From IMG/VR virus record IMGVR_UViG_2713897161_000003: a stretch of DNA of 14,535 bases; one strand, given 5' to 3'. Every line of letters starts with the position of its first letter. Within the stretch, counting starts at the first letter, position 1. The notes beneath the pieces are model-generated. The model was not told the DNA's origin, did no database searches, and saw nothing but the letters and a program-made list of their open reading frames with translations. Below, piece by piece: positions 2,271 to 13,117 of this stretch. This DNA is from a virus. Taxonomy: Duplodnaviria; Heunggongvirae; Uroviricota; Caudoviricetes. Both the position numbers and the translations under genes were made by a program.

Positions 2271-4067
2271 TTACTGGCCTACGATTTTAACCTGTTGAAA
2301 TTTACGACTGTGGCTGCGACGGATTTGTGCAAGCAGCAACAGCAGGCCGAGCAGAGAAACAATCGCACCGCTGATACCGGTATACACGATACCGGCGTGG
2401 CTTATAGTAATGCTGCCCAGTACTGATCCCAGCGCTATACCTGAGTTGAAGCCCGCAATATTCAGGCCGGCAGCAACACCATGCGCATGAGGAGCATGTT
2501 GCTCAGCGACACCAATCAGACGGGCCTGCAGTGCCGGCACTGCGGCAAATGTCACCATACCCAGCAGCGCAACCACAATGCCCATGCTCACCGGTGAGGA
2601 TGACAGCAGCCACATACCAAGCACGACAACAACAATGCCGCTAATGATGAGTATATTGGCACGATTAACCCCCATGCTGTCGGTAAGTTTCCCACCAAGA
2701 ATATTACCTACCGCAGCTGTAATACCGTAAACCAGCATAAACAGACTCACCGTTGCTCCGGTAACCCCTGTCACCTGCGTCAGAATAGGTGCGATAAAGG
2801 TGTAAGCCGTAAACGAGCCTGCATACGCCAGCACCGTAACCAGCGCGCCGGCCAGCAACTTACGGTTAAACAGCATGCCGATATTCTGCATTGCTGAGTC
2901 ACTATGTTCACCGGGCACGCTGCGTACGGGATCTTTCATACCGAACAACAGTCCAAGGAATCCGAACGCGCCAAAAGCGGCAATAGCGCCGAGAACTGGA
3001 CGCCATGAGACGACCCCCCNNNNNNNNNNNNNNNNNNNNNNNNNNNNNNNNNNNNNNNNNNNNNNNNNNNNNNNNNNNNNNNNNNNNNNNNNNNNNNNNN
3101 NNNNNNNNNNNNNNNNNNNNNNNNNNNNNNNNNNNNNNNNNNNNNNNNNNNNNNNNNNNNNNNNNNNNNNNNNNNNNNNNNNNNNNNNNNNNNNNNNNNN
3201 NNNNNNNNNNNNNNNNNNNNNNNNNNNNNNNNNNNNNNNNNNNNNNNNNNNNNNNNNNNNNNNNNNNNNNNNNNNNNNNNNNNNNNNNNNNNNNNNNNNN
3301 NNNNNNNNNNNNNNNNNNNNNNNNNNNNNNNNNNNNNNNNNNNNNNNNNNNNNNNNNNNNNNNNNNNNNNNNNNNNNNNNNNNNNNNNNNNNNNNNNNNN
3401 NNNNNNNNNNNNNNNNNNNNNNNNNNNNNNNNNNNNNNNNNNNNNNNNNNNNNNNNNNNNNNNNNNNNNNNNNNNNNNNNNNNNNNNNNNNNNNNNNNNN
3501 NNNNNNNNNNNNNNNNNNNNNNNNNNNNNNNNNNNNNNNNNNNNNNNNNNNNNNNNNNNNNNNNNNNNNNNNNNNNNNNNNNNNNNNNNNNNNNNNNNNN
3601 NNNNNNNNNNNNNNNNNNNNNNNNNNNNNNNNNNNNNNNNNNNNNNNNNNNNNNNNNNNNNNNNNNNNNNNNNNNNNNNNNNNCGCTCTGCCTGCTTTAC
3701 CCGGTCCAGCAAGACGAGCTGCGGTACTGGATGCCGCAGCCAGAAACAGGCCGTGTCCCAGACCAGCAATGAACCGCGCTAACAGGAGCTGAGGTAATGT
3801 GGCTGCAAACGCGGCCGCCAGACTACCGGCAGTAAACACAACGGCAGTTGTAAGCATTACATTTTTCCGGCTCCAGCTTGCTGTCAGCGCAGACAGTACG
3901 GGTGCCGCGAACGTTGCCCCCAGTGCATAGGTTGTAACCGCTGCCCCGGTCTGCTCCACACCCACACACAACCCCTGAGCCATAACGTCTGTCAGCCCAA
4001 TGGGGACAAATTCCGCGAGTCCGAGCGCAAAGGCACTGATAGTAAACACATAAATAACAAATGGCAT
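2271..4067 (-). CDS. MFS-family transporter, interrupted by an assembly gap; true length unknown
   Basis: Hydrophobic multi-helix translation on both sides of the N-run: 128 aa N-terminal part and 249 aa C-terminal part, consistent with a roughly 400-aa 12-TM MFS permease. The X-run in the ORF track is the gap artefact. Confidence 0.8.
   Translation of the reverse strand: MPFVIYVFTISAFALGLAEFVPIGLTDVMAQGLCVGVEQTGAAVTTYALGATFAAPVLSALTASWSRKNVMLTTAVVFTAGSLAAAFAATLPQLLLARFIAGLGHGLFLAAASSTAARLAGPGKAGRAXXXXXXXXXXXXXXXXXXXXXXXXXXXXXXXXXXXXXXXXXXXXXXXXXXXXXXXXXXXXXXXXXXXXXXXXXXXXXXXXXXXXXXXXXXXXXXXXXXXXXXXXXXXXXXXXXXXXXXXXXXXXXXXXXXXXXXXXXXXXXXXXXXXXXXXXXXXXXXXXXXXXXXXXXXXXXXXXXXXXXXXXXXXXXXXXXXXXXXXXXXXXXXXXXXXXXXXXXXXXXXGVVSWRPVLGAIAAFGAFGFLGLLFGMKDPVRSVPGEHSDSAMQNIGMLFNRKLLAGALVTVLAYAGSFTAYTFIAPILTQVTGVTGATVSLFMLVYGITAAVGNILGGKLTDSMGVNRANILIISGIVVVVLGMWLLSSSPVSMGIVVALLGMVTFAAVPALQARLIGVAEQHAPHAHGVAAGLNIAGFNSGIALGSVLGSITISHAGIVYTGISGAIVSLLGLLLLLAQIRRSHSRKFQQVKIVGQ
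3020..3683. other. Assembly gap, run of 664 N
   Basis: Uninterrupted N characters. Length may be an arbitrary scaffold placeholder. Confidence 0.99.
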
Positions 4068-4787
4068 GACTGGCTCCTGATTTAAGTAAGGAGTGCAGTC
4101 TGATTTAGAAAAACAGATAAATAAAATAATGTAAACTTCAGGCGGGATAAAATTATTTATATCTAAGGCAAAGATTCAATATTCCCACAGCACACAGAAG
4201 TTTTCTGTCTTCAGGGAGAGGAGCTTCGAAAGTTCAGACGAAAAATTCCTGCGGCCCCTTTAAGAGTCAGTTGGCCGGGTTTGGTCCGCTCCTCGCTCAA
4301 AGCGGACTAGAAGGTTAGCTTGCGTCGGACTTGGCGTATTTAAAGAAGTGCTGGTGGTGACTGGTTGTTGTGTTCCATTTCTACAGAACAAAATCACAGA
4401 AACTATACCCAATAGTTATATTGAATCAATGATGAGACAGCCTCATATTTATCAGAACTGGTGTACGTCCAATACAGGAGGTTGTCGTGCTGGTTCTCAA
4501 ATGTGCGCTAGCTATTGCGGCTGTAATGGCAATTTATTGTCTTGCTGTTGTTCTTATGGATCGCCTTTCTGATTGATTTTATATTGGCGAGGTGACGGGA
4601 GTTAAGTAGAATTGCTGCGGGTGCTTGAGGCTATCTGCCTCAGGCATGAACACCAAAGGCAGATAGAGAAAAGCCCCAGTTAACATTACGCGTCCTGCAA
4701 GACGCTTAACATTAATCTGAGGCTCAATCTATGAACGGCAAATCTAGGTTAGCCTCTTACGTGCCGAAAGGCAAGGAGAAGCAGGCT

Positions 4788-4943
4788 ATGAAGCAGCAAA
4801 AGGCGATGTTAATCGCCCTGATCGTCATCTGTTTAACCGTTATAGTGACGGTACTGGTAACGAGGAAAGACCTCTGCGAGGTACGAATCCGAACCGACCA
4901 GACGGAGGTCGCTGTCTTCACAGCTTACGAACTTGGGGAGTAA
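4788..4943 (+). CDS. hok: Hok/Gef-family type I toxin, 51 aa; an in-frame upstream ATG at 4731 gives a 70-codon mok-like reading frame
   Basis: Translation MKQQKAMLIALIVICLTVIVTVLVTRKDLCEVRIRTDQTEVAVFTAYELGE closely resembles HokD/HokC as recalled. Shine-Dalgarno AAGGAGAA lies 8 nt upstream of the ATG at 4788. Confidence 0.85.
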   Translation: MKQQKAMLIALIVICLTVIVTVLVTRKDLCEVRIRTDQTEVAVFTAYELGE

Positions 4944-6006: not shown

Positions 6007-6473
6007 TGGTGAATTTACGTAAAGCGGCTAAAGGCCAGATGTGCCAGATCAGAATCCCTGGCTACTGCAATCACAATCCCGAAACCTCTGTGCTGGCGCA
6101 TTACAGGCTGGCGGGGACGTGCGGAACAGCGACAAAACCACACGATATGCAGGCGGCGATAGCCTGTAGCTCATGCCACGATCTAATCGACGGGCGGGTA
6201 AAAACCAGCGATTACACCAAAGAAGAATTGCGCCTGATGCATGCTGAAGGGGTTTTCGCACACAAGAAATCTGGAGAAAGAAAGGTCATTTATGATTTAC
6301 CCAACGAATACAGGAAAAAGCGGAGAACACCTTCGCCTCACCACGCTGGAAAGTGTCTGGATTCAGGGAAAACTACGTATGTGGGGGCGCTGGTCGTATA
6401 TTGGCGGTGGCAGGTCAGGGAATATGTTCAATCAGTTGTTGGCATCCAAAAAACTGACGAAAACAGCCATTAA
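6006..6473 (+). CDS. YbcO-like phage protein (DUF1364, putative nuclease) with an atypical ~60-aa C-terminal extension
   Basis: The first ~90 aa (LRKAAKGQMCQIRIPGYCNHNPETSVLAH...ACSSCHD) match the Cys-rich prophage YbcO family as recalled, which is ~96 aa. This ORF runs to 155 aa and overlaps the Q gene in another frame. Confidence 0.65.
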   Translation: MVNLRKAAKGQMCQIRIPGYCNHNPETSVLAHYRLAGTCGTATKPHDMQAAIACSSCHDLIDGRVKTSDYTKEELRLMHAEGVFAHKKSGERKVIYDLPNEYRKKRRTPSPHHAGKCLDSGKTTYVGALVVYWRWQVREYVQSVVGIQKTDENSH

Positions 6474-6834
6474 TGAAGCCCTGCGCAGAATGAAAAAAGC
6501 GGGAATAGAGAAAGCTGAGCTGGAAGCGTTTTTGCGAGAGATGATCAACGGCAAGCAAAAGAGCTGGCTGGCGCATTGTACTGATGCAGAGGCGTTATGT
6601 ATTGATCGAGTCATAAGTGAGGTGCTGGCAGAGCATCCAGGATTGATTTGCATTCTCCGGCAACGCTATGAAGGGCGGGGGATGACTAAGCGCAAAATGG
6701 CTGAATTGCTAAATGATGCACACCCAGAGTGGTGTTTTAGCACATGCGAAAAACGGATTGCTAATTGGTTAGCTGTTGCTGAGTATGCCCTATATATTCC
6801 CATGCGTGAATCATTTGCTGAGAAAATGGCTTGA
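6292..6834 (+). CDS. Late-gene antiterminator Q (21/82-type family), 180 aa from the ATG at 6292; the ORF track offers an alternative start at 6241
   Basis: N-terminal LESVWIQGKLRMWGRWSY motif resembles the Q-antiterminator family. Positioned immediately upstream of a short terminated leader and the lysis genes. GGAGAAAGAAAGG lies upstream of the ATG at 6292. Confidence 0.75.
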   Translation: MIYPTNTGKSGEHLRLTTLESVWIQGKLRMWGRWSYIGGGRSGNMFNQLLASKKLTKTAINEALRRMKKAGIEKAELEAFLREMINGKQKSWLAHCTDAEALCIDRVISEVLAEHPGLICILRQRYEGRGMTKRKMAELLNDAHPEWCFSTCEKRIANWLAVAEYALYIPMRESFAEKMA

Positions 6835-6914
6835 TTTCTTACGTATAAACTGCTTCAATTTTGCTATGCTTCGTAAAGCTGTATCGCGAGGCGGATTGCA
6901 GACATGGACATCGT

Positions 6915-6941
6915 AAAAAAACCGCTTAATGCGGTTTTTTT
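6915..6941 (+). terminator. Intrinsic terminator, tR'-like, ~80 nt downstream of Q
   Basis: AAAAAACCGC / TTAAT loop / GCGGTTTTTT hairpin followed by a T-run. A possible extended -10 (TGcTATGCT, 6862-6870) lies upstream, giving the short-leader arrangement expected of a Q-modified late promoter. Confidence 0.6.
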
Positions 6942-7878
6942 ACGTCAGGAAAGCAGGGGAGAATGCTGCTAGTTGGGCAACTGGTCTTTCTGCTCCAAAT
7001 TATAACAGAGACCAGTTATAGTTTCGGTGCTGTGTTTTTTTTACAATATTGTGATAACACATTGCTGGCGGGAGTTTTGATATTTCTTGGCAGGGGCTGA
7101 TGATGCGTTATCCTGATGTCGTCAACTCATATAAAATGAGATGAGAGATCATTGCAGGGTGGTTTGTAATTCGCTGTTTAGCGGGACAATATGTTGTCTG
7201 ATACAAGACACCCGACGCCTCAGATTACTATAATAAAGATGAAGCATCCTTTGTATTGACCAACCACCTGTTTAGGCGGTTCTTTTTGGGCTGGTTTATT
7301 GTATGCAAAATGATTATTAAAAAGGTTGTGTTAATAACAAAATCCGAAATAATATGCCTGCATATTTTTATCTTGCTTATATTCTGCATATTGTGCATAG
7401 CAGGCTCATCCCTGCAATCAAAACTGTATGATGAGTATTTTTTGTTTTCCTTTTTTCCAGTCATCTGATGATGACCTGCTTCTTTTTAATCCGGATCGAC
7501 ATCAGTTTTTTAAGATAATTCCTGCGAGTTATATGCATAAATGCCACAAACTCCGCATTTTATGTGGTTGGGAGTTGCCGGGCGCGCAGTGAGTTTGCTA
7601 AGAAAACTCCTGCATGGTGAATCCCCCTGTGCGGTGGGGTGATACCATTAACCTTTTCTGTCGCCGACAGGTATCACGAACATTTTGTTCACCGGGAGGC
7701 ACCCGGCACCATGCACTTCAATAGATTCTCTCCACATTATGGATATTCTTTCAGAATATCCCACGCAGACTTTGTGTAAATGTTAACAAATGTGCGTTTT
7801 ATTTGATCTGATTCGCTGTTTGAGCGTCCAAAACAACGGTATATATAATCCTTTACTATATGACATATGTGAGGAAAA

Positions 7879-8307
7879 ATGGGTTTTCGTAGCGCATCAA
7901 TTCCTACGTTGATTATTAGTGGGATTATTATCGGGTGCACTGATGCTGTATCGACAAATTATCATGACCGTACATCATATTACTCCGATAAAGCAATAGA
8001 GACACAGTATGTGAGTTCATCTGAACGTACTTCTGATGTTAGTGAGGATATCCGTCTGTATGCCCATCAAATCAAGAGCGCCATCGAAAAACAGTTCGGG
8101 GATGCGAGTAAGTATTCAGGAAAAGAGTGTACACTGAGAATGCATATGGCCCCGAATGGCCTTCTACTGGAGGTTAAAAGAGAAAGTGGAGACCTCGATT
8201 TATGTCGTGAAGCGATGAATGCGATAAAGAATGCTGATATACCTGCCCCCCCTTCGCCGGAAGTATATAAAGTATTTCAAAATGGGGTGCTGGATTTTAA
8301 ACCCTGA
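7879..8307 (+). CDS. Lipoprotein with TolA C-terminal (domain III)-like domain, 142 aa
   Basis: Signal peptide with lipobox IIGC and Thr at +2. The C-terminal ~85 aa (YAHQIKSAIEKQFGDASKYSGKECTLRMHMAPNGLLLEVKRESGDLDLCREAMNAIKNADIPAPPSPEVYKVFQNGVLDFKP) closely parallel the C-terminus of E. coli TolA as recalled, including two Cys spaced 25 residues apart. Shine-Dalgarno GAGG precedes the ATG. Confidence 0.8.
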   Translation: MGFRSASIPTLIISGIIIGCTDAVSTNYHDRTSYYSDKAIETQYVSSSERTSDVSEDIRLYAHQIKSAIEKQFGDASKYSGKECTLRMHMAPNGLLLEVKRESGDLDLCREAMNAIKNADIPAPPSPEVYKVFQNGVLDFKP

Positions 8308-8457
8308 TATTTATTGTTTTGTAATAAACGGTTTCGGCTTAGGTTTGTTCTGACACAGCTACGGCACTGAGCTAAATTTAGCGGATAGTCAGCTCTGAGC
8401 CAGTGGCGGACGTAACAACTACTATTGCTGAGATTTTAATGGATTGAGGAGCAAGAA

Positions 8458-8853
8458 GTGGGATTAAAGAAAATCGTTATGTTGACTTTTTGGGTCGGTT
8501 TTGTTGCGGGATGCACACCTTTACACCCTTCAGATTGCCACAAAACTACTGCTACAGGTAGTTGCAGTTCAGGACGCTGGGATGATCAGGATGAATGGGG
8601 GGCGCAAGCGCGGGGAATCAGAGCTGCAATTAATGCCAAACTTGATGAGCCGCATAACTGGAAAGGGAAAAAATGCAGGTTGCATATGGAATTCTCTCAG
8701 GATGGCACGGCGTTAAAAATATCTACCAGTAACGGTGATAAAGCCTATTGCGAAGCGATAAAGTCCGCAGCTCATAAAGCCAAATTTCCGGCCTTCAACA
8801 ATCCGGAAGTCTACAGAGATTTTCAGAAATCTGGCTTTGACATGCGAGGTTAG
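8458..8853 (+). CDS. Diverged paralog of the TolA-domain-III-like lipoprotein, 131 aa, GTG start
   Basis: Lipobox FVAGC with Thr at +2. C-terminal KKCRLHMEFSQDGTALKISTSNGDKAYCEAIKSAAHKAKFPAFNNPEVYRDFQKSGFDMRG keeps the Cys-25-Cys spacing and the EVY..FQ motif of the upstream copy. Shine-Dalgarno GAGGAG lies 6 nt before the GTG. Confidence 0.75.
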   Translation: MGLKKIVMLTFWVGFVAGCTPLHPSDCHKTTATGSCSSGRWDDQDEWGAQARGIRAAINAKLDEPHNWKGKKCRLHMEFSQDGTALKISTSNGDKAYCEAIKSAAHKAKFPAFNNPEVYRDFQKSGFDMRG

Positions 8854-9002: not shown

Positions 9003-9104
9003 ATTGCATCGTCTCCAGCATATATATCAATTAAGGCTCTGATTGATGTGTCTGAAAGCCTACACATAATAACTATGCCATCCGTTCCGTGCGGAGGTGA
9101 GGCT

Positions 9105-9320
9105 ATGAAATCCATGGACAAAATTTCAACAGGCATTGCCTACGGCACCTCCGCAGGCAGTGCTGGCTACTGGTTTTTACAGTTGCTCGATAGAGTAACT
9201 CCGTCACAGTGGGCTGCAATCGGTGTGCTGGGTAGTCTGGTATTTGGCCTGCTGACGTACCTGACAAACCTTTATTTCAAGATTAAAGAAGATAAGCGCA
9301 AGGCTGCGAGAGGTGAATAA
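9105..9320 (+). CDS. Class II holin of the phage 21 S (pinholin) family, 71 aa, with dual-start motif
   Basis: [71 protein letters not shown] resembles S21/EssD as recalled. The Met1-Lys-Ser-Met4 arrangement fits the antiholin/holin dual start. GGAGGTGAGG precedes the ATG at 9105. Confidence 0.9.
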
Positions 9321-9817
9321 TGCCTCCATCATTACGAAAAGTCGTTGCTGCTGCTATTGGTGGCGGAGCAATTGCTATAGCATCAGTGTTAATCACTGGC
9401 CCAAGTGGTAACGATGGTCTGGAAGGTGTCAGCTACATACCATACAAAGATATTGTTGGTGTATGGACTGTATGTCACGGGCATACAGGAAAAGACATCA
9501 TGCTCGGTAAAACGTATACCAAAGCAGAATGCAAAACACTCTTGAATAAAGACCTTGCCACGGTCGCCAGACAAATTAACCCGTACATCAAAGTCGATAT
9601 ACCGGAAACAACGCGCGGCGCTCTTTACTCATTCGTTTACAACGTGGGTGCTGGCAATTTCAGAACATCGACGCTTCTTCGCAAAATAAACCAGGGCGAT
9701 ATCAAAGGCGCATGTGATCAGCTACGTCGCTGGACATATGCTGGCGGTAAGCAATGGAAAGGTCTCATGACTCGTCGTGAGATTGAGCGTGAAATCTGTT
9801 TGTGGGGTCAGCAATGA
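9320..9817 (+). CDS. SAR endolysin (lysozyme, R21/RrrD-like), 165 aa
   Basis: N-terminal Gly/Ala-rich signal-anchor-release segment ([21 protein letters not shown]) followed by a lysozyme-like domain. Start overlaps the holin stop (TAATG). Confidence 0.92.
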
Positions 9818-10278
9818 ACAGAGTAACCGCGATTATCTCCGCTCTGGTTATCTGCATCGTCGTCTGCCTGTCATGGGGTGTTAATCATTACCGTGATAAC
9901 GCCATCGCCTACAAAGAACAGCGCGACAAAAATGCCAGAGAACTGAAGCTGGCGAACGCGGCAATTACTGACATGCAGATGCGTCAGCGTGATGTTGCTG
10001 CGCTCGATGCAAAATACACGAAGGAGTTAGCTGATGCGAAAGCTGAAAATGATGTTCTGCGTGATGATGTTGCCGCTGGTCGTCGTCGGTTGCACATCAA
10101 AGCAGTCTGTCAGTCAGTGCGTGAAGCCACCACCGCCTCCGGCGTGGATAATGCAGCCTCCCCCCGACTGGCAGACACCGCTGAACGGGATTATTTCACC
10201 CTCCGGGAACGACTGGTAATGATGCAGGCCCAACTTGAAGGTGCTCAGCAATACATAACCGAGCAGTGTTTAAAGTAA
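9814..10278 (+). CDS. Rz-type i-spanin, 154 aa from the ATG at 9814; the ORF track gives a GTG alternative at 9802
   Basis: N-terminal transmembrane helix then a coiled-coil-like periplasmic domain. The ATG overlaps the endolysin stop (ATGA). Resembles RzpD as recalled. Confidence 0.88.
10034..10219 (+). CDS. Rz1-type o-spanin lipoprotein, 61 aa, embedded in the +1 frame of Rz
   Basis: Lipobox LVVVGC and a proline-rich mature region ([15 protein letters not shown]), entirely nested within Rz. Shine-Dalgarno AAGGAG lies 7 nt upstream. Confidence 0.88.
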
Positions 10279-12542: not shown

Positions 12543-13117
12543 TGGTATTCAGAATGAGTGAACAACCACGGACCATAACAATTTATAATCTGCTGGCCGG
12601 AACTAATGAATTTATTGGTGAAGGTGATGCATATATTCCGCCTCATACAGGTCTGCCAGCAAACAGTACCGATATTGCACCGCCAGATATTCCGGCAGGC
12701 TTCGTGGCTGTTTTCAACAGTGATGAGGCATCGTGGCATCTCGTTGAAGATCATCGGGGTAAAACGGTTTATGACGTGGCTTCCGGCGACGCGTTATTTA
12801 TTTCTGAACTCGGTCCGTTACCGGAAAATGTTACCTGGTTATCGCCGGAAGGGGAGTTTCAGAAGTGGAACGGCACAGCCTGGGTGAAGGATACGGAAGC
12901 AGAAAAACTGTTCCGGATCCGGGAGGCGGAAGAAACAAAAAACAACCTGATGCAGGTAGCCAGTGAGCATATTGCGCCGCTTCAGGATGCTGCAGATCTG
13001 GAAATTGCAACGGAGGAAGAAATCTCGTTGCTGGAAGCATGGAAAAAGTATCGGGTATTGCTGAACCGTGTTGATACGTCAACTTCACAGGATATTGAAT
13101 GGCCAGCACTGCCGTAG
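12542..13117 (+). CDS. tfa: Tail fibre assembly protein, 191 aa
   Basis: Resembles TfaR/TfaQ of E. coli cryptic prophages as recalled ([73 protein letters not shown]). Translationally coupled to the fibre-tip ORF. Confidence 0.9.

What the first reader, a model, noticed from the sequence alone, without database searches (positions are those of the whole stretch)
6943..7878. About 0.9 kb of AT-rich, ORF-poor DNA with several hairpins between the Q-leader terminator and the first lipoprotein gene
No convincing ORF occupies this stretch; the two overlapping 70-78 codon ORFs on opposite strands have no ribosome-binding sites. It contains perfect inverted repeats: AACTGGTCT/AGACCAGTT (6980-6988 and 7010-7018), GGTGATACC/GGTATCAC (about 7640-7680), CCGGG-AGGCA-CCCGG (about 7694-7708) and CCCC-N8-GGGG (about 7624-7640). 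It is too long for a simple promoter. It could hold the promoter and regulatory leader for the lipoprotein pair, a small RNA, or an H-NS-silenced regulatory region acquired with the insert.
Basis: seen in the sequence. Interest (0 to 1): 0.45.

Follow-up and report, generated by a model that had tools for sequence, protein, structure and literature searches.

The report
Prophage small-RNA genes, not empty spacer
The gene-free stretch after the prophage's late-gene switch holds one copy of a known prophage small RNA (STnc100/PasD family), a decayed second copy and a possible third small-RNA unit, so it is an ordinary example of a known arrangement.

Summary
In detail: 6943-7878 has no credible ORF and all four inverted repeats exist (coordinates off by 1-2 nt). 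It is only mildly AT-rich (GC 0.40 vs 0.43 for the window).

Three of the four hairpins lie in an Rfam STnc100 match (RF02076) at 7582-7768 (+), 86.6 bits against a gathering score of 47. This is the STnc100/EcOnc27/PasD family of Hfq-associated prophage sRNAs, known to sit between Q/PR' and the lysis genes. In 15 copies the core helices are 96.8% paired, with 13 compensated pairs. The window copy lacks the family's GC-rich terminator, so its 3' end and activity are uncertain.

The fourth hairpin (6979-7017) is not conserved.

The left part is not a random spacer:
- 6995-7297 is a decayed relic of a divergent STnc100-like unit.
- 7365-7487 is a conserved promoter-to-terminator unit, a candidate sRNA with no Rfam family, partly decayed here.
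- 7820-7875 holds a promoter-like site and Shine-Dalgarno sequence for the TolA-domain lipoprotein gene.

No coding or tRNA remnants were found. The window is a Rac-like lambdoid prophage. The small-RNA reading is supported, the leader reading is not excluded, and H-NS silencing was not testable. Verdict: a known kind, low interest.

The parts
6912..6944 (+). Late-leader terminator (tR'-like): hairpin CGTAAAAAAACCGC-TTAAT-GCGGTTTTTTTACG. It is the left border of the finding.
   Evidence: A 14-bp perfect inverted repeat. Folding gives -19.7 kcal/mol, z = -6.0. It lies 78 nt after the stop codon of the DUF1133/Q-like gene at 6241-6834.
6979..7017 (.). Inverted repeat AACTGGTCT / AGACCAGTT (9 bp, 21-nt loop). 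It is not conserved and is probably fortuitous, lying at a mosaic junction.
   Evidence: Present. Only the right arm lies in the block shared with L002/L003/L004; the left arm lies in window-specific sequence 6943-6994. The minimum-energy fold of 6943-7110 does not use this pairing and has z = -1.3.
6995..7297 (+). Unit X: decayed relic of a divergent STnc100-like unit. Closing-helix remnant TGAGATG (7137-7143) with CGCCTCA (7216-7222). The P1 hairpin is lost. The left arm of P4 is removed by an 18-nt deletion. The terminator remnant is AACCACC-TGTTTA-GGCGGTT-CTTTTT (7262-7287) with one A.C mismatch.
   Evidence: 6995-7165 is 79% identical to L004 and 7206-7501 is 83% identical to L002. The L004 homologue (3116-3310) matches Rfam STnc100 end to end at 27.3 bits, E = 0.001. 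The L099 homologue scores 30.4 bits. Alignments A1, A3 and A5 show what is kept elsewhere and lost here. The window copy has no Rfam match at E <= 1.
7365..7487 (+). Unit Y: conserved promoter-to-terminator unit and candidate sRNA of about 90 nt with no known family. It has a -35-like TTTTTA (7365-7370; consensus TTGTTA), a 16-nt spacer, and a -10-like CATATT (7387-7392; consensus TAT(A/C/G)TT). It also has an invariant TGTATGATGA (7425-7434), a U-rich stretch, a stem CCAGTCATC/GATGACCTG (7457-7478) and CTTCTTTTT (7479-7487). The window copy is weaker than the consensus in the -35, the -10 and the stem.
   Evidence: Eleven sequence variants aligned in A4. The promoter hexamers, the 10-mer and the T-run are conserved, and one stem pair changes T-A to C-G in 4 variants. 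The terminator scan flags 7460-7475. The window hairpin folds at only -7.8 kcal/mol. No Rfam match. The overlapping ORF is not coding: T-run length varies between near-identical copies and frames and lengths differ between variants.
7575..7604 (+). Inferred promoter of the STnc100 copy: -35 TTGCCG (7575-7580), an 18-nt spacer including TG, then the -10 TAAGAA (7599-7604).
   Evidence: Inference by homology. PasD1 has TTGACT-18-TAAAAA, and its 5' end, set from RNA-seq coverage and Northern band size, is the first G of GCAUGGUG (PMC8550237 Table S6; sequence). The same -35 TTG(T/C)CT and TGnTAAAA motifs precede other copies. Not tested for this copy.
7582..7768 (+). STnc100-family sRNA gene (Rfam RF02076). 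The RNA probably starts near G7612. Closing helix 7612-7619 with 7707-7714. P1 7623-7639. Variable arm 7639-7677. P3 7678-7690. P4 7692-7706. Single-stranded C/U-rich tail 7715-7740 (UUCUCUCC at 7726-7733, a candidate seed).
   Evidence: Rfam 86.6 bits against a gathering score of 47, E = 1.4e-54? no: E = 8.4e-18, model positions 1-206. The minimum-energy fold reproduces the family structure, z = -3.7. In 15 copies 96.8% of cells are paired, against 42-46% when partners are slid, with 13 pairs compensated and 0 of 500 shuffles as high. The variable arm keeps pairing in L008 through C-G to T-A (GTGATATC/GATATCAC).
7741..7804 (+). 3' end region of the STnc100 copy. An AT-rich hairpin GGATATTCT-TTC-AGAATATCC (7741-7761) has no U-tract. 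It is followed by a weak hairpin at 7763-7797 and then UUUAUUU (7798-7804). These replace the family's GC-rich terminator GCCCCTCTCCGGAGGGGC-T6.
   Evidence: Rfam alignment and copy comparison. Folding gives -9.5 kcal/mol (z = -4.9) for the first hairpin and -9.3 kcal/mol (z = -1.3) for the second. The terminator scan finds no site here.
7820..7878 (+). Promoter-like site TTGAGC-18-TATAAT (7820-7849) and Shine-Dalgarno GAGGA (7871-7875) for the first TolA-C-domain lipoprotein gene (ATG at 7879).
   Evidence: Promoter scan, 10 of 12 matches. Sequence. Downstream gene: Pfam TolA C-terminal domain, E = 2.4e-23, with lipobox IIIGC.

Best explanation
The region is the non-coding accessory ('moron') segment that lies between the late promoter/terminator (PR'-tR', just after the Q-like gene) and the lysis genes of a Rac-like lambdoid prophage. 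It consists of small-RNA transcription units, all on the strand of the late operon.

(Z) 7582-7768 is a copy of the STnc100/EcOnc27/PasD family. Its RNA most likely starts at about G7612 from its own sigma-70 promoter. It folds into a four-way core: a closing helix, two sequence-invariant hairpins and a hypervariable arm. A single-stranded C/U-rich 3' tail would base-pair with target mRNAs with the help of Hfq, as shown for relatives.

(X) 6995-7297 is a mutationally decayed relic of an older, divergent unit of the same family.

(Y) 7365-7487 is a separate short promoter-to-terminator unit. It is a candidate sRNA that is conserved in several prophage lineages but weakened in this one.

The last 60 nt carry the promoter and ribosome-binding site of the lipoprotein gene.

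In a lysogen each unit would be transcribed, or not, from its own promoter. After induction, Q-modified RNA polymerase would read through all of these terminators into the lysis genes.

Shown here: family membership, structure conservation, context, absence of coding or tRNA remnants, and decay of X. Inferred: transcription start, seed, Hfq dependence, expression in this prophage, and that Y is an RNA gene.
For: Family membership: Rfam STnc100 at 86.6 bits against a gathering score of 47.

Structure: covariation in 15 copies, with 13 compensated pairs and 0 of 500 shuffles as high. The window copy folds into the family structure, z = -3.7.

Context: Q-like gene, then this region, then two TolA-domain genes, then essD/rrrD/rzpD and trkG. 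In 12 related loci all 22 STnc100 matches lie between the antiterminator gene (with or without a tRNA array) and the lysis cassette, on the same strand.

Literature: convergent Hfq-binding sRNA genes sit downstream of PR' in at least eight Sakai prophages (PMC4104026; PMC7873438). STnc100 and PasD share an origin and lie near Q and the holin/lysozyme genes (bioRxiv 10.64898/2026.05.13.724894). One STnc100 copy was confirmed by Northern blot in EDL933 (PMC5331693). PasD1/2 show Hfq-dependent stability, and their 5' end was assigned at the closing helix from RNA-seq coverage and Northern size (PMC8550237).

Unit X: its homologues match STnc100 over the full model at 27-30 bits, and alignments show the losses in the window.

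Unit Y: 11 variants keep the promoter hexamers, an invariant 10-mer, the stem and the T-run.

No coding or tRNA content.
Against: The window's STnc100 copy lacks the GC-rich stem and U-tract terminator present in 8 of the 15 aligned copies. In Hfq-dependent sRNAs that element is usually needed for termination and Hfq binding. The copy may therefore be inactive, processed, or part of a longer transcript.

The inferred -10 (TAAGAA) and -35 (TTGCCG) are weak matches, and the promoter scan did not call them.

No transcript data exist for this prophage type. About 530 E. coli genomes carry the element at 99% identity or more, so conservation within the type says nothing about selection.

Unit Y rests on one compensatory pair, probably a single event, and on few lineages. 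Its promoter and terminator are degraded in the window.

What STnc100 does is not established even for the studied copies: for sRNA103, only overexpression effects on fimZ and espA are reported (PMC7873438).
Confidence: 0.8

Rival explanations
1. The structured element at 7612-7714 is a cis-acting 5' leader of the lipoprotein operon. Transcription would start at the STnc100 promoter, fail to terminate, and run into 7879-8853, so that the structure controls stability or translation of that mRNA.
For: The window copy has no canonical terminator; it has only an AT-rich hairpin without a U-tract and a weak second hairpin. The same 3' tail is joined to the TolA-domain gene in four lineages that have two different variable arms (window, L002, L005, L006). 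It is on the same strand, 110 nt upstream of the start codon.
Against: A separate promoter-like site (10 of 12 matches) lies between the element and the gene. Other family members have their own terminators and precede unrelated genes or nothing: esterase, a DUF1737 fragment, the convergent AgvB, or further STnc100 units. In L005 and L006 the tail is kept although the TolA gene is truncated.
Confidence: 0.15
2. The whole stretch is functionless decaying prophage DNA, possibly H-NS-bound AT-rich spacer, in which the STnc100 copy is a pseudogene like unit X.
For: Units X and Y are visibly degraded in this lineage. The STnc100 copy has the lowest Rfam score class among the copies examined: 86.6 bits here, against 77-172 bits for the others, and it has lost the terminator. 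GC is 0.39 left of 7582 and 0.32 right of 7768. A terminator-less PasA variant has been suggested to be a pseudogene (bioRxiv 10.64898/2026.05.13.724894).
Against: All four core helices and both invariant hairpins of the copy are intact. The terminator-less type is shared by diverged lineages (87-94% identity: L002, L005, L006), which argues for persistence. H-NS binding was not tested.
Confidence: 0.25
3. The region hides degraded protein-coding genes or small-protein genes. Candidates are the 14-codon ORF at 7100-7144, the 54-codon ORF at 7428-7592, and the 22-codon ORF from ATG 7711, which lies behind the GGAGG of hairpin P4.
For: Codon-like third-position changes appear in M(R/H)YPDVV across four lineages. 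GGAGG lies 11 nt before an AUG in 12 of 15 copies. Ribosome footprints were reported on some STnc100 copies in EDL933 (PMC5331693).
Against: The 7100 ORF varies from 7 to more than 23 codons with non-conservative changes, and it aligns to the 5' part of the STnc100 model. The 7428 ORF is frameshifted by T-run length changes between near-identical copies and lacks a consistent Shine-Dalgarno sequence. The 7711 AUG is lost in 3 copies through compensated changes of the closing helix, and the downstream frames differ. No family matches.
Confidence: 0.03

Closest known systems
STnc100 (Rfam RF02076), also called EcOnc27 or sRNA103 in EHEC
   Same: The covariance-model match is above the gathering score. 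It has the same closing helix, the same invariant hairpins (CCCCC..GGGG and CCGGGAGGCACCCGG) and a variable arm. It occupies the same place, a lambdoid prophage between Q/PR' and the lysis genes, on the same strand as the late operon (PMC4104026; PMC12370729).
   Different: It has no GC-rich terminator with a U-tract and no convergent AgvB/AsxR-type partner. It is followed by a TolA-domain lipoprotein gene rather than an esterase or stx context. The prophage is a Rac-like element of commensal and animal E. coli, not an Stx phage.
PasD1/PasD2 of EPEC E2348/69 (EcOnc13 homologues)
   Same: Same core architecture and position. PasD gives the assigned 5' end (first G of GCAUGGUG) and shows that the seed lies in the single-stranded tail before the terminator.
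   Different: PasD scores only 37.7 bits against the STnc100 model. Its P1, variable arm and tail (seed UGUGAG) differ from the window copy (tail UUCUCUCC). PasD has a strong terminator.
AgvB/AsxR anti-sRNAs and the sRNA 'dyads' of EHEC prophages
   Same: Same genomic slot and the same logic: small regulatory RNA genes carried as accessory cargo downstream of PR' (PMC4104026; PMC7873438). AgvB was found convergent to an STnc100 copy in L009.
   Different: No AgvB or AsxR match in the window. Unit Y is co-oriented with the late operon and shares only the terminator arm and U-tract with PasA/PasC.
Lambda 6S RNA / StxS (the short PR'-tR' transcript)
   Same: The hairpin at 6912-6944 directly left of the finding is the equivalent terminator of the late leader (PMC7547250).
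   Different: It lies outside the finding. There is no sequence similarity to StxS, only a weak isrK-like score of 20 bits against a gathering score of 50.

Membership tests
STnc100 (Rfam RF02076) | Covariance-model score at or above the curated gathering score (47 bits), covering the full model | tested here: met
   86.6 bits, model positions 1-206, at 7582-7768 on the + strand.
STnc100 (Rfam RF02076) | Closing helix enclosing the invariant hairpins P1 (CCCCC..GGGG) and P4 (CCGGG-AGGCA-CCCGG), plus a variable arm | tested here: met
   All are present in the window copy and in its minimum-energy fold. The helices covary in 15 copies.
STnc100 (Rfam RF02076) | Rho-independent terminator at the 3' end (GC-rich stem followed by a U-tract) | tested here: not met
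   The window has an AT-rich hairpin at 7741-7761 without a U-tract. The weak alternative at 7763-7804 is not called by the scan. Four other aligned copies (L002a, L003a, L003 3547, L002 4331) also lack it, plus L005, which shares the window's tail.
STnc100 (Rfam RF02076) | Location in a lambdoid prophage between the antiterminator gene and the lysis genes | tested here: met
   Q-like DUF1133 gene at 6241-6834 and holin/lysozyme/Rz genes at 9048-10278.
STnc100 (Rfam RF02076) | Expressed as a discrete, Hfq-associated RNA | not testable with these tools
   Shown only for relatives (PMC4104026, PMC5331693, PMC8550237).
sRNA dyad of EHEC prophages (STnc100-type plus a convergent AgvB/AsxR-type sRNA) | Convergent short sRNA gene immediately 3' of the STnc100-type gene | tested here: not met
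   No AgvB or AsxR match in the window at gathering score or at E <= 1. It is present in L009.
Protein-coding gene or pseudogene | An ORF longer than chance, or similarity to a known protein family | tested here: not met
   Longest ORF of 78 aa equals the shuffle mean. No Pfam, PHROGs or tblastn matches.
Prophage tRNA array (present at this position in related prophages) | tRNA genes between tR' and the accessory genes | tested here: not met
   ARAGORN finds 0 tRNA genes in the window. No tRNA fragments by short-word blastn. L002-L007 carry 1-4 tRNAs there.
H-NS-silenced horizontally acquired DNA | Marked AT-richness relative to the host, and H-NS occupancy | tested here: inconclusive
   GC is 0.40, only 3 points below the window's 0.43, and lowest (0.36) at 7200-7499. 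Occupancy is not testable.

The most novel reading that the evidence does not exclude
The STnc100 core may be more than a scaffold for a base-pairing sRNA. It could be a cis-acting module of the late transcript, for example a binding site for RNA polymerase, the ribosome or a phage or host protein that affects read-through, processing or insulation.

Three observations leave this open. Its two hairpins are invariant in both stem and loop, while the neighbouring helices covary freely. All 22 copies examined are co-oriented with the late operon. It also occurs as head-to-tail arrays of up to four units between Q and the lysis genes.

A smaller novel reading is that unit Y (7365-7487) is an undescribed sRNA family of non-EHEC lambdoid prophages.
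Probability: 0.07. Interest if true: 0.65.

Novelty: new member of a known kind. Interest (0 to 1): 0.2.

Why it matters
It matters little. The main element is a copy of a curated RNA family in its usual place, and standard annotation with Infernal/Rfam would label it.

Some modest points remain:
- The accessory slot of a Rac-type prophage, common in commensal and animal E. coli (about 530 of 5426 complete genomes carry this copy at 99% identity or more), carries the same kind of sRNA cargo described for Stx and EPEC prophages.
- This copy is a terminator-less variant fused to a TolA-domain lipoprotein gene.
- The 'spacer' beside it records the decay of an older unit and contains a conserved promoter-terminator unit that no database names.
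- The first ~30 positions of the Rfam model appear to be promoter DNA, judging from the PasD1 5' end (first G of the closing helix, assigned from RNA-seq coverage and Northern size).

Tried and rejected
1. Conserved micro-ORF M(R/H)YPDVV at 7100-7144. It looked coding in 4 sequences. With 17 variants its length runs from 7 to more than 23 codons with non-conservative changes, and it aligns to the 5' part of the STnc100 model. Rejected.

2. Degraded genes. Pfam and PHROGs searches on all ORFs of 40 aa or more, and tblastn with TerB, DUF3927, PsiE, IraM and DUF1737 proteins from the same slot of other prophages, gave nothing. The only 'hit' was a PGAP pseudo-CDS lying antisense over STnc100.

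3. tRNA remnants: none.

4. TATAAT at 7229-7234 as a promoter of a 50-nt RNA. It lies inside the tail of relic unit X and is better explained that way.

5. Unit Y as a PasA/PasC homologue. Only the terminator arm and U-tract are similar, and the window copy scores no better than shuffles.

6. Unit Y in Rfam. Only insignificant VqmR/Qrr-like scores were found.

7. Search for unit Y beyond E. coli. The single genome-contig scan used too loose a pattern and returned only chance matches. A stricter viral-contig scan found no new lineages.

8. Peptide behind the GGAGG of P4: not conserved.

9. I did not build my own covariance model. The Rfam model and direct alignments were sufficient.

Full report
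CONTEXT

The window is a Rac-like lambdoid prophage of E. coli. A near-identical chromosome (L001) is annotated, in order, as:
- ydaU and ydaV;
- DUF1367, DUF1364 and DUF1133 genes;
- about 1 kb without annotation;
- two TolA-C-terminal-domain genes;
- essD, rrrD and rzpD;
- trkG.

The DUF1133 protein (6241-6834) also matches Phage_antitermQ at the Pfam threshold. The finding therefore lies where lambdoid phages carry accessory 'moron' DNA, downstream of the Q-dependent late promoter and its terminator. That general point is stated in PMC4104026. The 14-bp hairpin at 6912-6944 (-19.7 kcal/mol, z = -6.0) is that terminator.

THE OBSERVATION

- The region has no credible ORF. The longest is 78 aa, and shuffles of the region give 78.5 +/- 18.7 aa.
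- None of the five ORFs of 45-78 aa matches Pfam or PHROGs.
- AT-richness is modest: GC 0.403 against 0.432 for the window.
- All four inverted repeats are present within 1-2 nt of the stated positions. There is a fifth at 7741-7761.
- Perfect repeats of at least 8 nt are commoner than in shuffles: 3 against 0.53 expected.

WHAT THE HAIRPINS ARE

Rfam places STnc100 (RF02076) at 7582-7768 on the + strand with 86.6 bits, against a gathering score of 47. Its parts are:
- closing helix, 7612-7619 with 7707-7714;
- P1, CCCCC..GGGG, 7623-7639;
- variable arm, GTGATACC..GGTATCAC, 7639-7677;
- P3, 7678-7690;
- P4, CCGGG-AGGCA-CCCGG, 7692-7706.

The window copy folds into this structure on its own, z = -3.7. 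I aligned it with 14 copies from related E. coli prophages.
- 96.8% of cells are paired, against 42-46% when partners are slid.
- 13 of 27 pairs carry compensatory changes.
- None of 500 shuffles reaches the observed values.
- The closing helix and P3 covary, whereas P1 and P4 are invariant in both stem and loop.
- The variable arm keeps pairing in one L008 copy through a C-G to T-A change.

The fourth hairpin (6979-7017) is different. Only its right arm lies in sequence shared with other prophages. The local fold is unremarkable, z = -1.3. I regard it as fortuitous.

WHAT IS KNOWN ABOUT THE FAMILY

- Tree et al. found Hfq-crosslinked sRNA genes downstream of PR' in at least eight Sakai prophages. 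They include EcOnc27, which lies convergent to AsxR after stx2B (PMC4104026; PMC7873438).
- EcOnc27 overlaps the STnc100 prediction (PMC12711010).
- One of eleven EDL933 copies was confirmed by Northern blot (PMC5331693).
- PasD1 and PasD2 of EPEC are abundant, depend on Hfq for stability, and interact with many mRNAs in RIL-seq (PMC8550237).
- A 2026 preprint concludes that PasD and STnc100 share an ancestor and lie near Q and the holin/lysozyme genes (10.64898/2026.05.13.724894).
- Function is not settled for any copy.

I fetched PasD1. It scores 37.7 bits against the STnc100 model. Its published 5' end (Table S6, from RNA-seq coverage and Northern size) is the first G of GCAUGGUG, the closing helix. 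Its seed, UGUGAG, lies in the single-stranded tail just before the terminator.

By homology, the window RNA should start near G7612. The inferred promoter is TTGCCG (7575-7580), an 18-nt spacer, then TGC-TAAGAA (7596-7604). A candidate seed lies in the tail at 7715-7740 (UUCUCUCC). These points are inferences.

HOW THE WINDOW COPY DEPARTS FROM THE FAMILY

Eight of the 15 aligned copies end in GCCCCTCTCCGGAGGGGC followed by T6, or a close variant. The window copy instead has an AT-rich 9-bp hairpin without a U-tract (7741-7761). This is followed by a weak hairpin and UUUAUUU (7763-7804).

The same tail is joined to the TolA-domain gene in L002, L005 and L006, and L005/L006 have a different variable arm. 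So the type persists and has recombined within the conserved core. No AgvB/AsxR partner is present.

Three readings remain open: the copy ends at a poor terminator, it is read through into the lipoprotein gene, or it is inactive. A separate promoter-like site (TTGAGC-18-TATAAT, 7820-7849) and a Shine-Dalgarno sequence (7871-7875) precede the lipoprotein gene.

THE REST OF THE 'SPACER'

The segment 6943-7580 has no match in the phage collection. It occurs almost unchanged in about 450 E. coli chromosomes. Diverged homologues show that it is a mosaic. Related prophages carry 1-4 tRNA genes between tR' and this DNA. The window has none and no fragments of any.

Block 6995-7297 (unit X) is a divergent STnc100-like unit.
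- The L004 homologue matches the Rfam model end to end at 27.3 bits, E = 0.001 in a 1.15-kb search.
- The L099 homologue scores 30.4 bits.
- Those copies keep a compensated closing helix (TGAGGTG/CACCTCA), P1 (CCCCATGTGCGGGGG), P4 (TCGGGAGGCACCCGA) and a terminator (ACCGCC..GGCGGT followed by T8).
- The window copy has lost P1, has an 18-nt deletion across the left arm of P4, and has a mismatch in the terminator stem.
- It gives no Rfam match at E <= 1. It is a relic.
- The small ORF I first noticed at 7100-7144 is the 5' part of this unit and is not coding.

Block 7365-7487 (unit Y) has 11 sequence variants in five lineages. They share:
- TTGTTA, a 17-nt spacer, then TAT(A/C/G)TT;
- a small hairpin;
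- the invariant TGTATGATGA;
- a U-rich stretch;
- a stem and T-run with one T-A to C-G exchange.

This looks like a short sRNA gene. It has no Rfam family. It is not PasA or PasC. It was not found outside these prophages.

In the window its -35, its -10 and its stem are all weaker than the consensus. The evidence that it is an RNA gene is moderate. The evidence that it is active here is weak.

VERDICT

The finding is real and is explained by known biology: sRNA cargo in the accessory slot of a lambdoid prophage. The small-RNA reading is supported. The leader reading survives only as a minority rival because the terminator is missing. H-NS silencing could not be tested.

The main element is a new member of a known family with an atypical 3' end. 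The neighbouring relic and the unnamed unit Y are minor additions.

Noticed in passing
L008 2202-3181 (plus 230-442); L003 3310-4425; L007 3043-4158; L002 3436-3609 and 4331-4793: STnc100 units occur as head-to-tail arrays of up to four copies with a period of about 260 nt. Most have their own promoter-like motif and terminator. All 22 Rfam matches in 12 loci are co-oriented with the antiterminator and lysis genes. I did not find tandem arrays mentioned in the papers I read.
   Followed up: partly
window 7582-7611; L104 1431-1460: The published 5' end of PasD1 (NC_011601 position 1060260, from RNA-seq coverage and Northern size) is the first G of the closing helix. So roughly the first 30 positions of Rfam model RF02076 appear to be promoter DNA (-35 TTGxCT, extended -10 TGnTAAAA) rather than RNA.
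   Followed up: partly
window 7692-7713 and the same positions of the other copies (alignment A2): Hairpin P4 contains GGAGG and is followed 11 nt later by AUG in 12 of 15 copies. Three copies lose the AUG through compensated changes of the closing helix, and the downstream frames differ, so no peptide is conserved. A Ribo-seq study reported ribosome footprints on several STnc100 copies (PMC5331693).
   Followed up: partly
L005 3052-3192, L006 3011-3151, L104 1501-1899, L099 1379-1660, L225 298-539: RefSeq/PGAP annotates 'hypothetical protein' CDSs or pseudogenes on the opposite strand over STnc100/PasD or unit Y. These are probably false gene calls over RNA genes.
   Followed up: no
window 7879-8307 and 8458-8853: Two paralogous small lipoproteins (lipoboxes IIIGC and FVAGC) with a TolA C-terminal domain (Pfam E = 2.4e-23 and 1.3e-14; both in phrog_5772, function unknown). 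They sit as accessory genes just before the holin gene. Mimicry of the TolA domain used by colicins and filamentous phages is an obvious idea, not tested.
   Followed up: no
window 6835-6944: The short leader between the Q-like gene and the strong hairpin at 6912-6944 is the counterpart of lambda 6S RNA / StxS, a regulatory sRNA in Stx phages (PMC7547250). It has only a weak isrK-like score (20 bits against a gathering score of 50).
   Followed up: no
window 4619-4793 and 12885-13083: Two further Rfam matches at gathering score lie elsewhere in the window: the sok antitoxin RNA (111.7 bits) and IS009 (220.9 bits).
   Followed up: no
L002 2385-2694, L004 2608-2917, L003 2530-2684, L006 2043-2295, L009 1969-2221: Related prophages carry arrays of 2-4 tRNA genes (Ile, Arg or Lys, Thr, Gly) between tR' and the unit X block. 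The window lineage has none, so the array was either lost here or gained elsewhere.
   Followed up: partly
L009 3184-3245 (-): An AgvB anti-sRNA gene (96.5 bits) lies convergent to, and directly abutting, an STnc100 copy. This matches the published 'dyad' arrangement.
   Followed up: no
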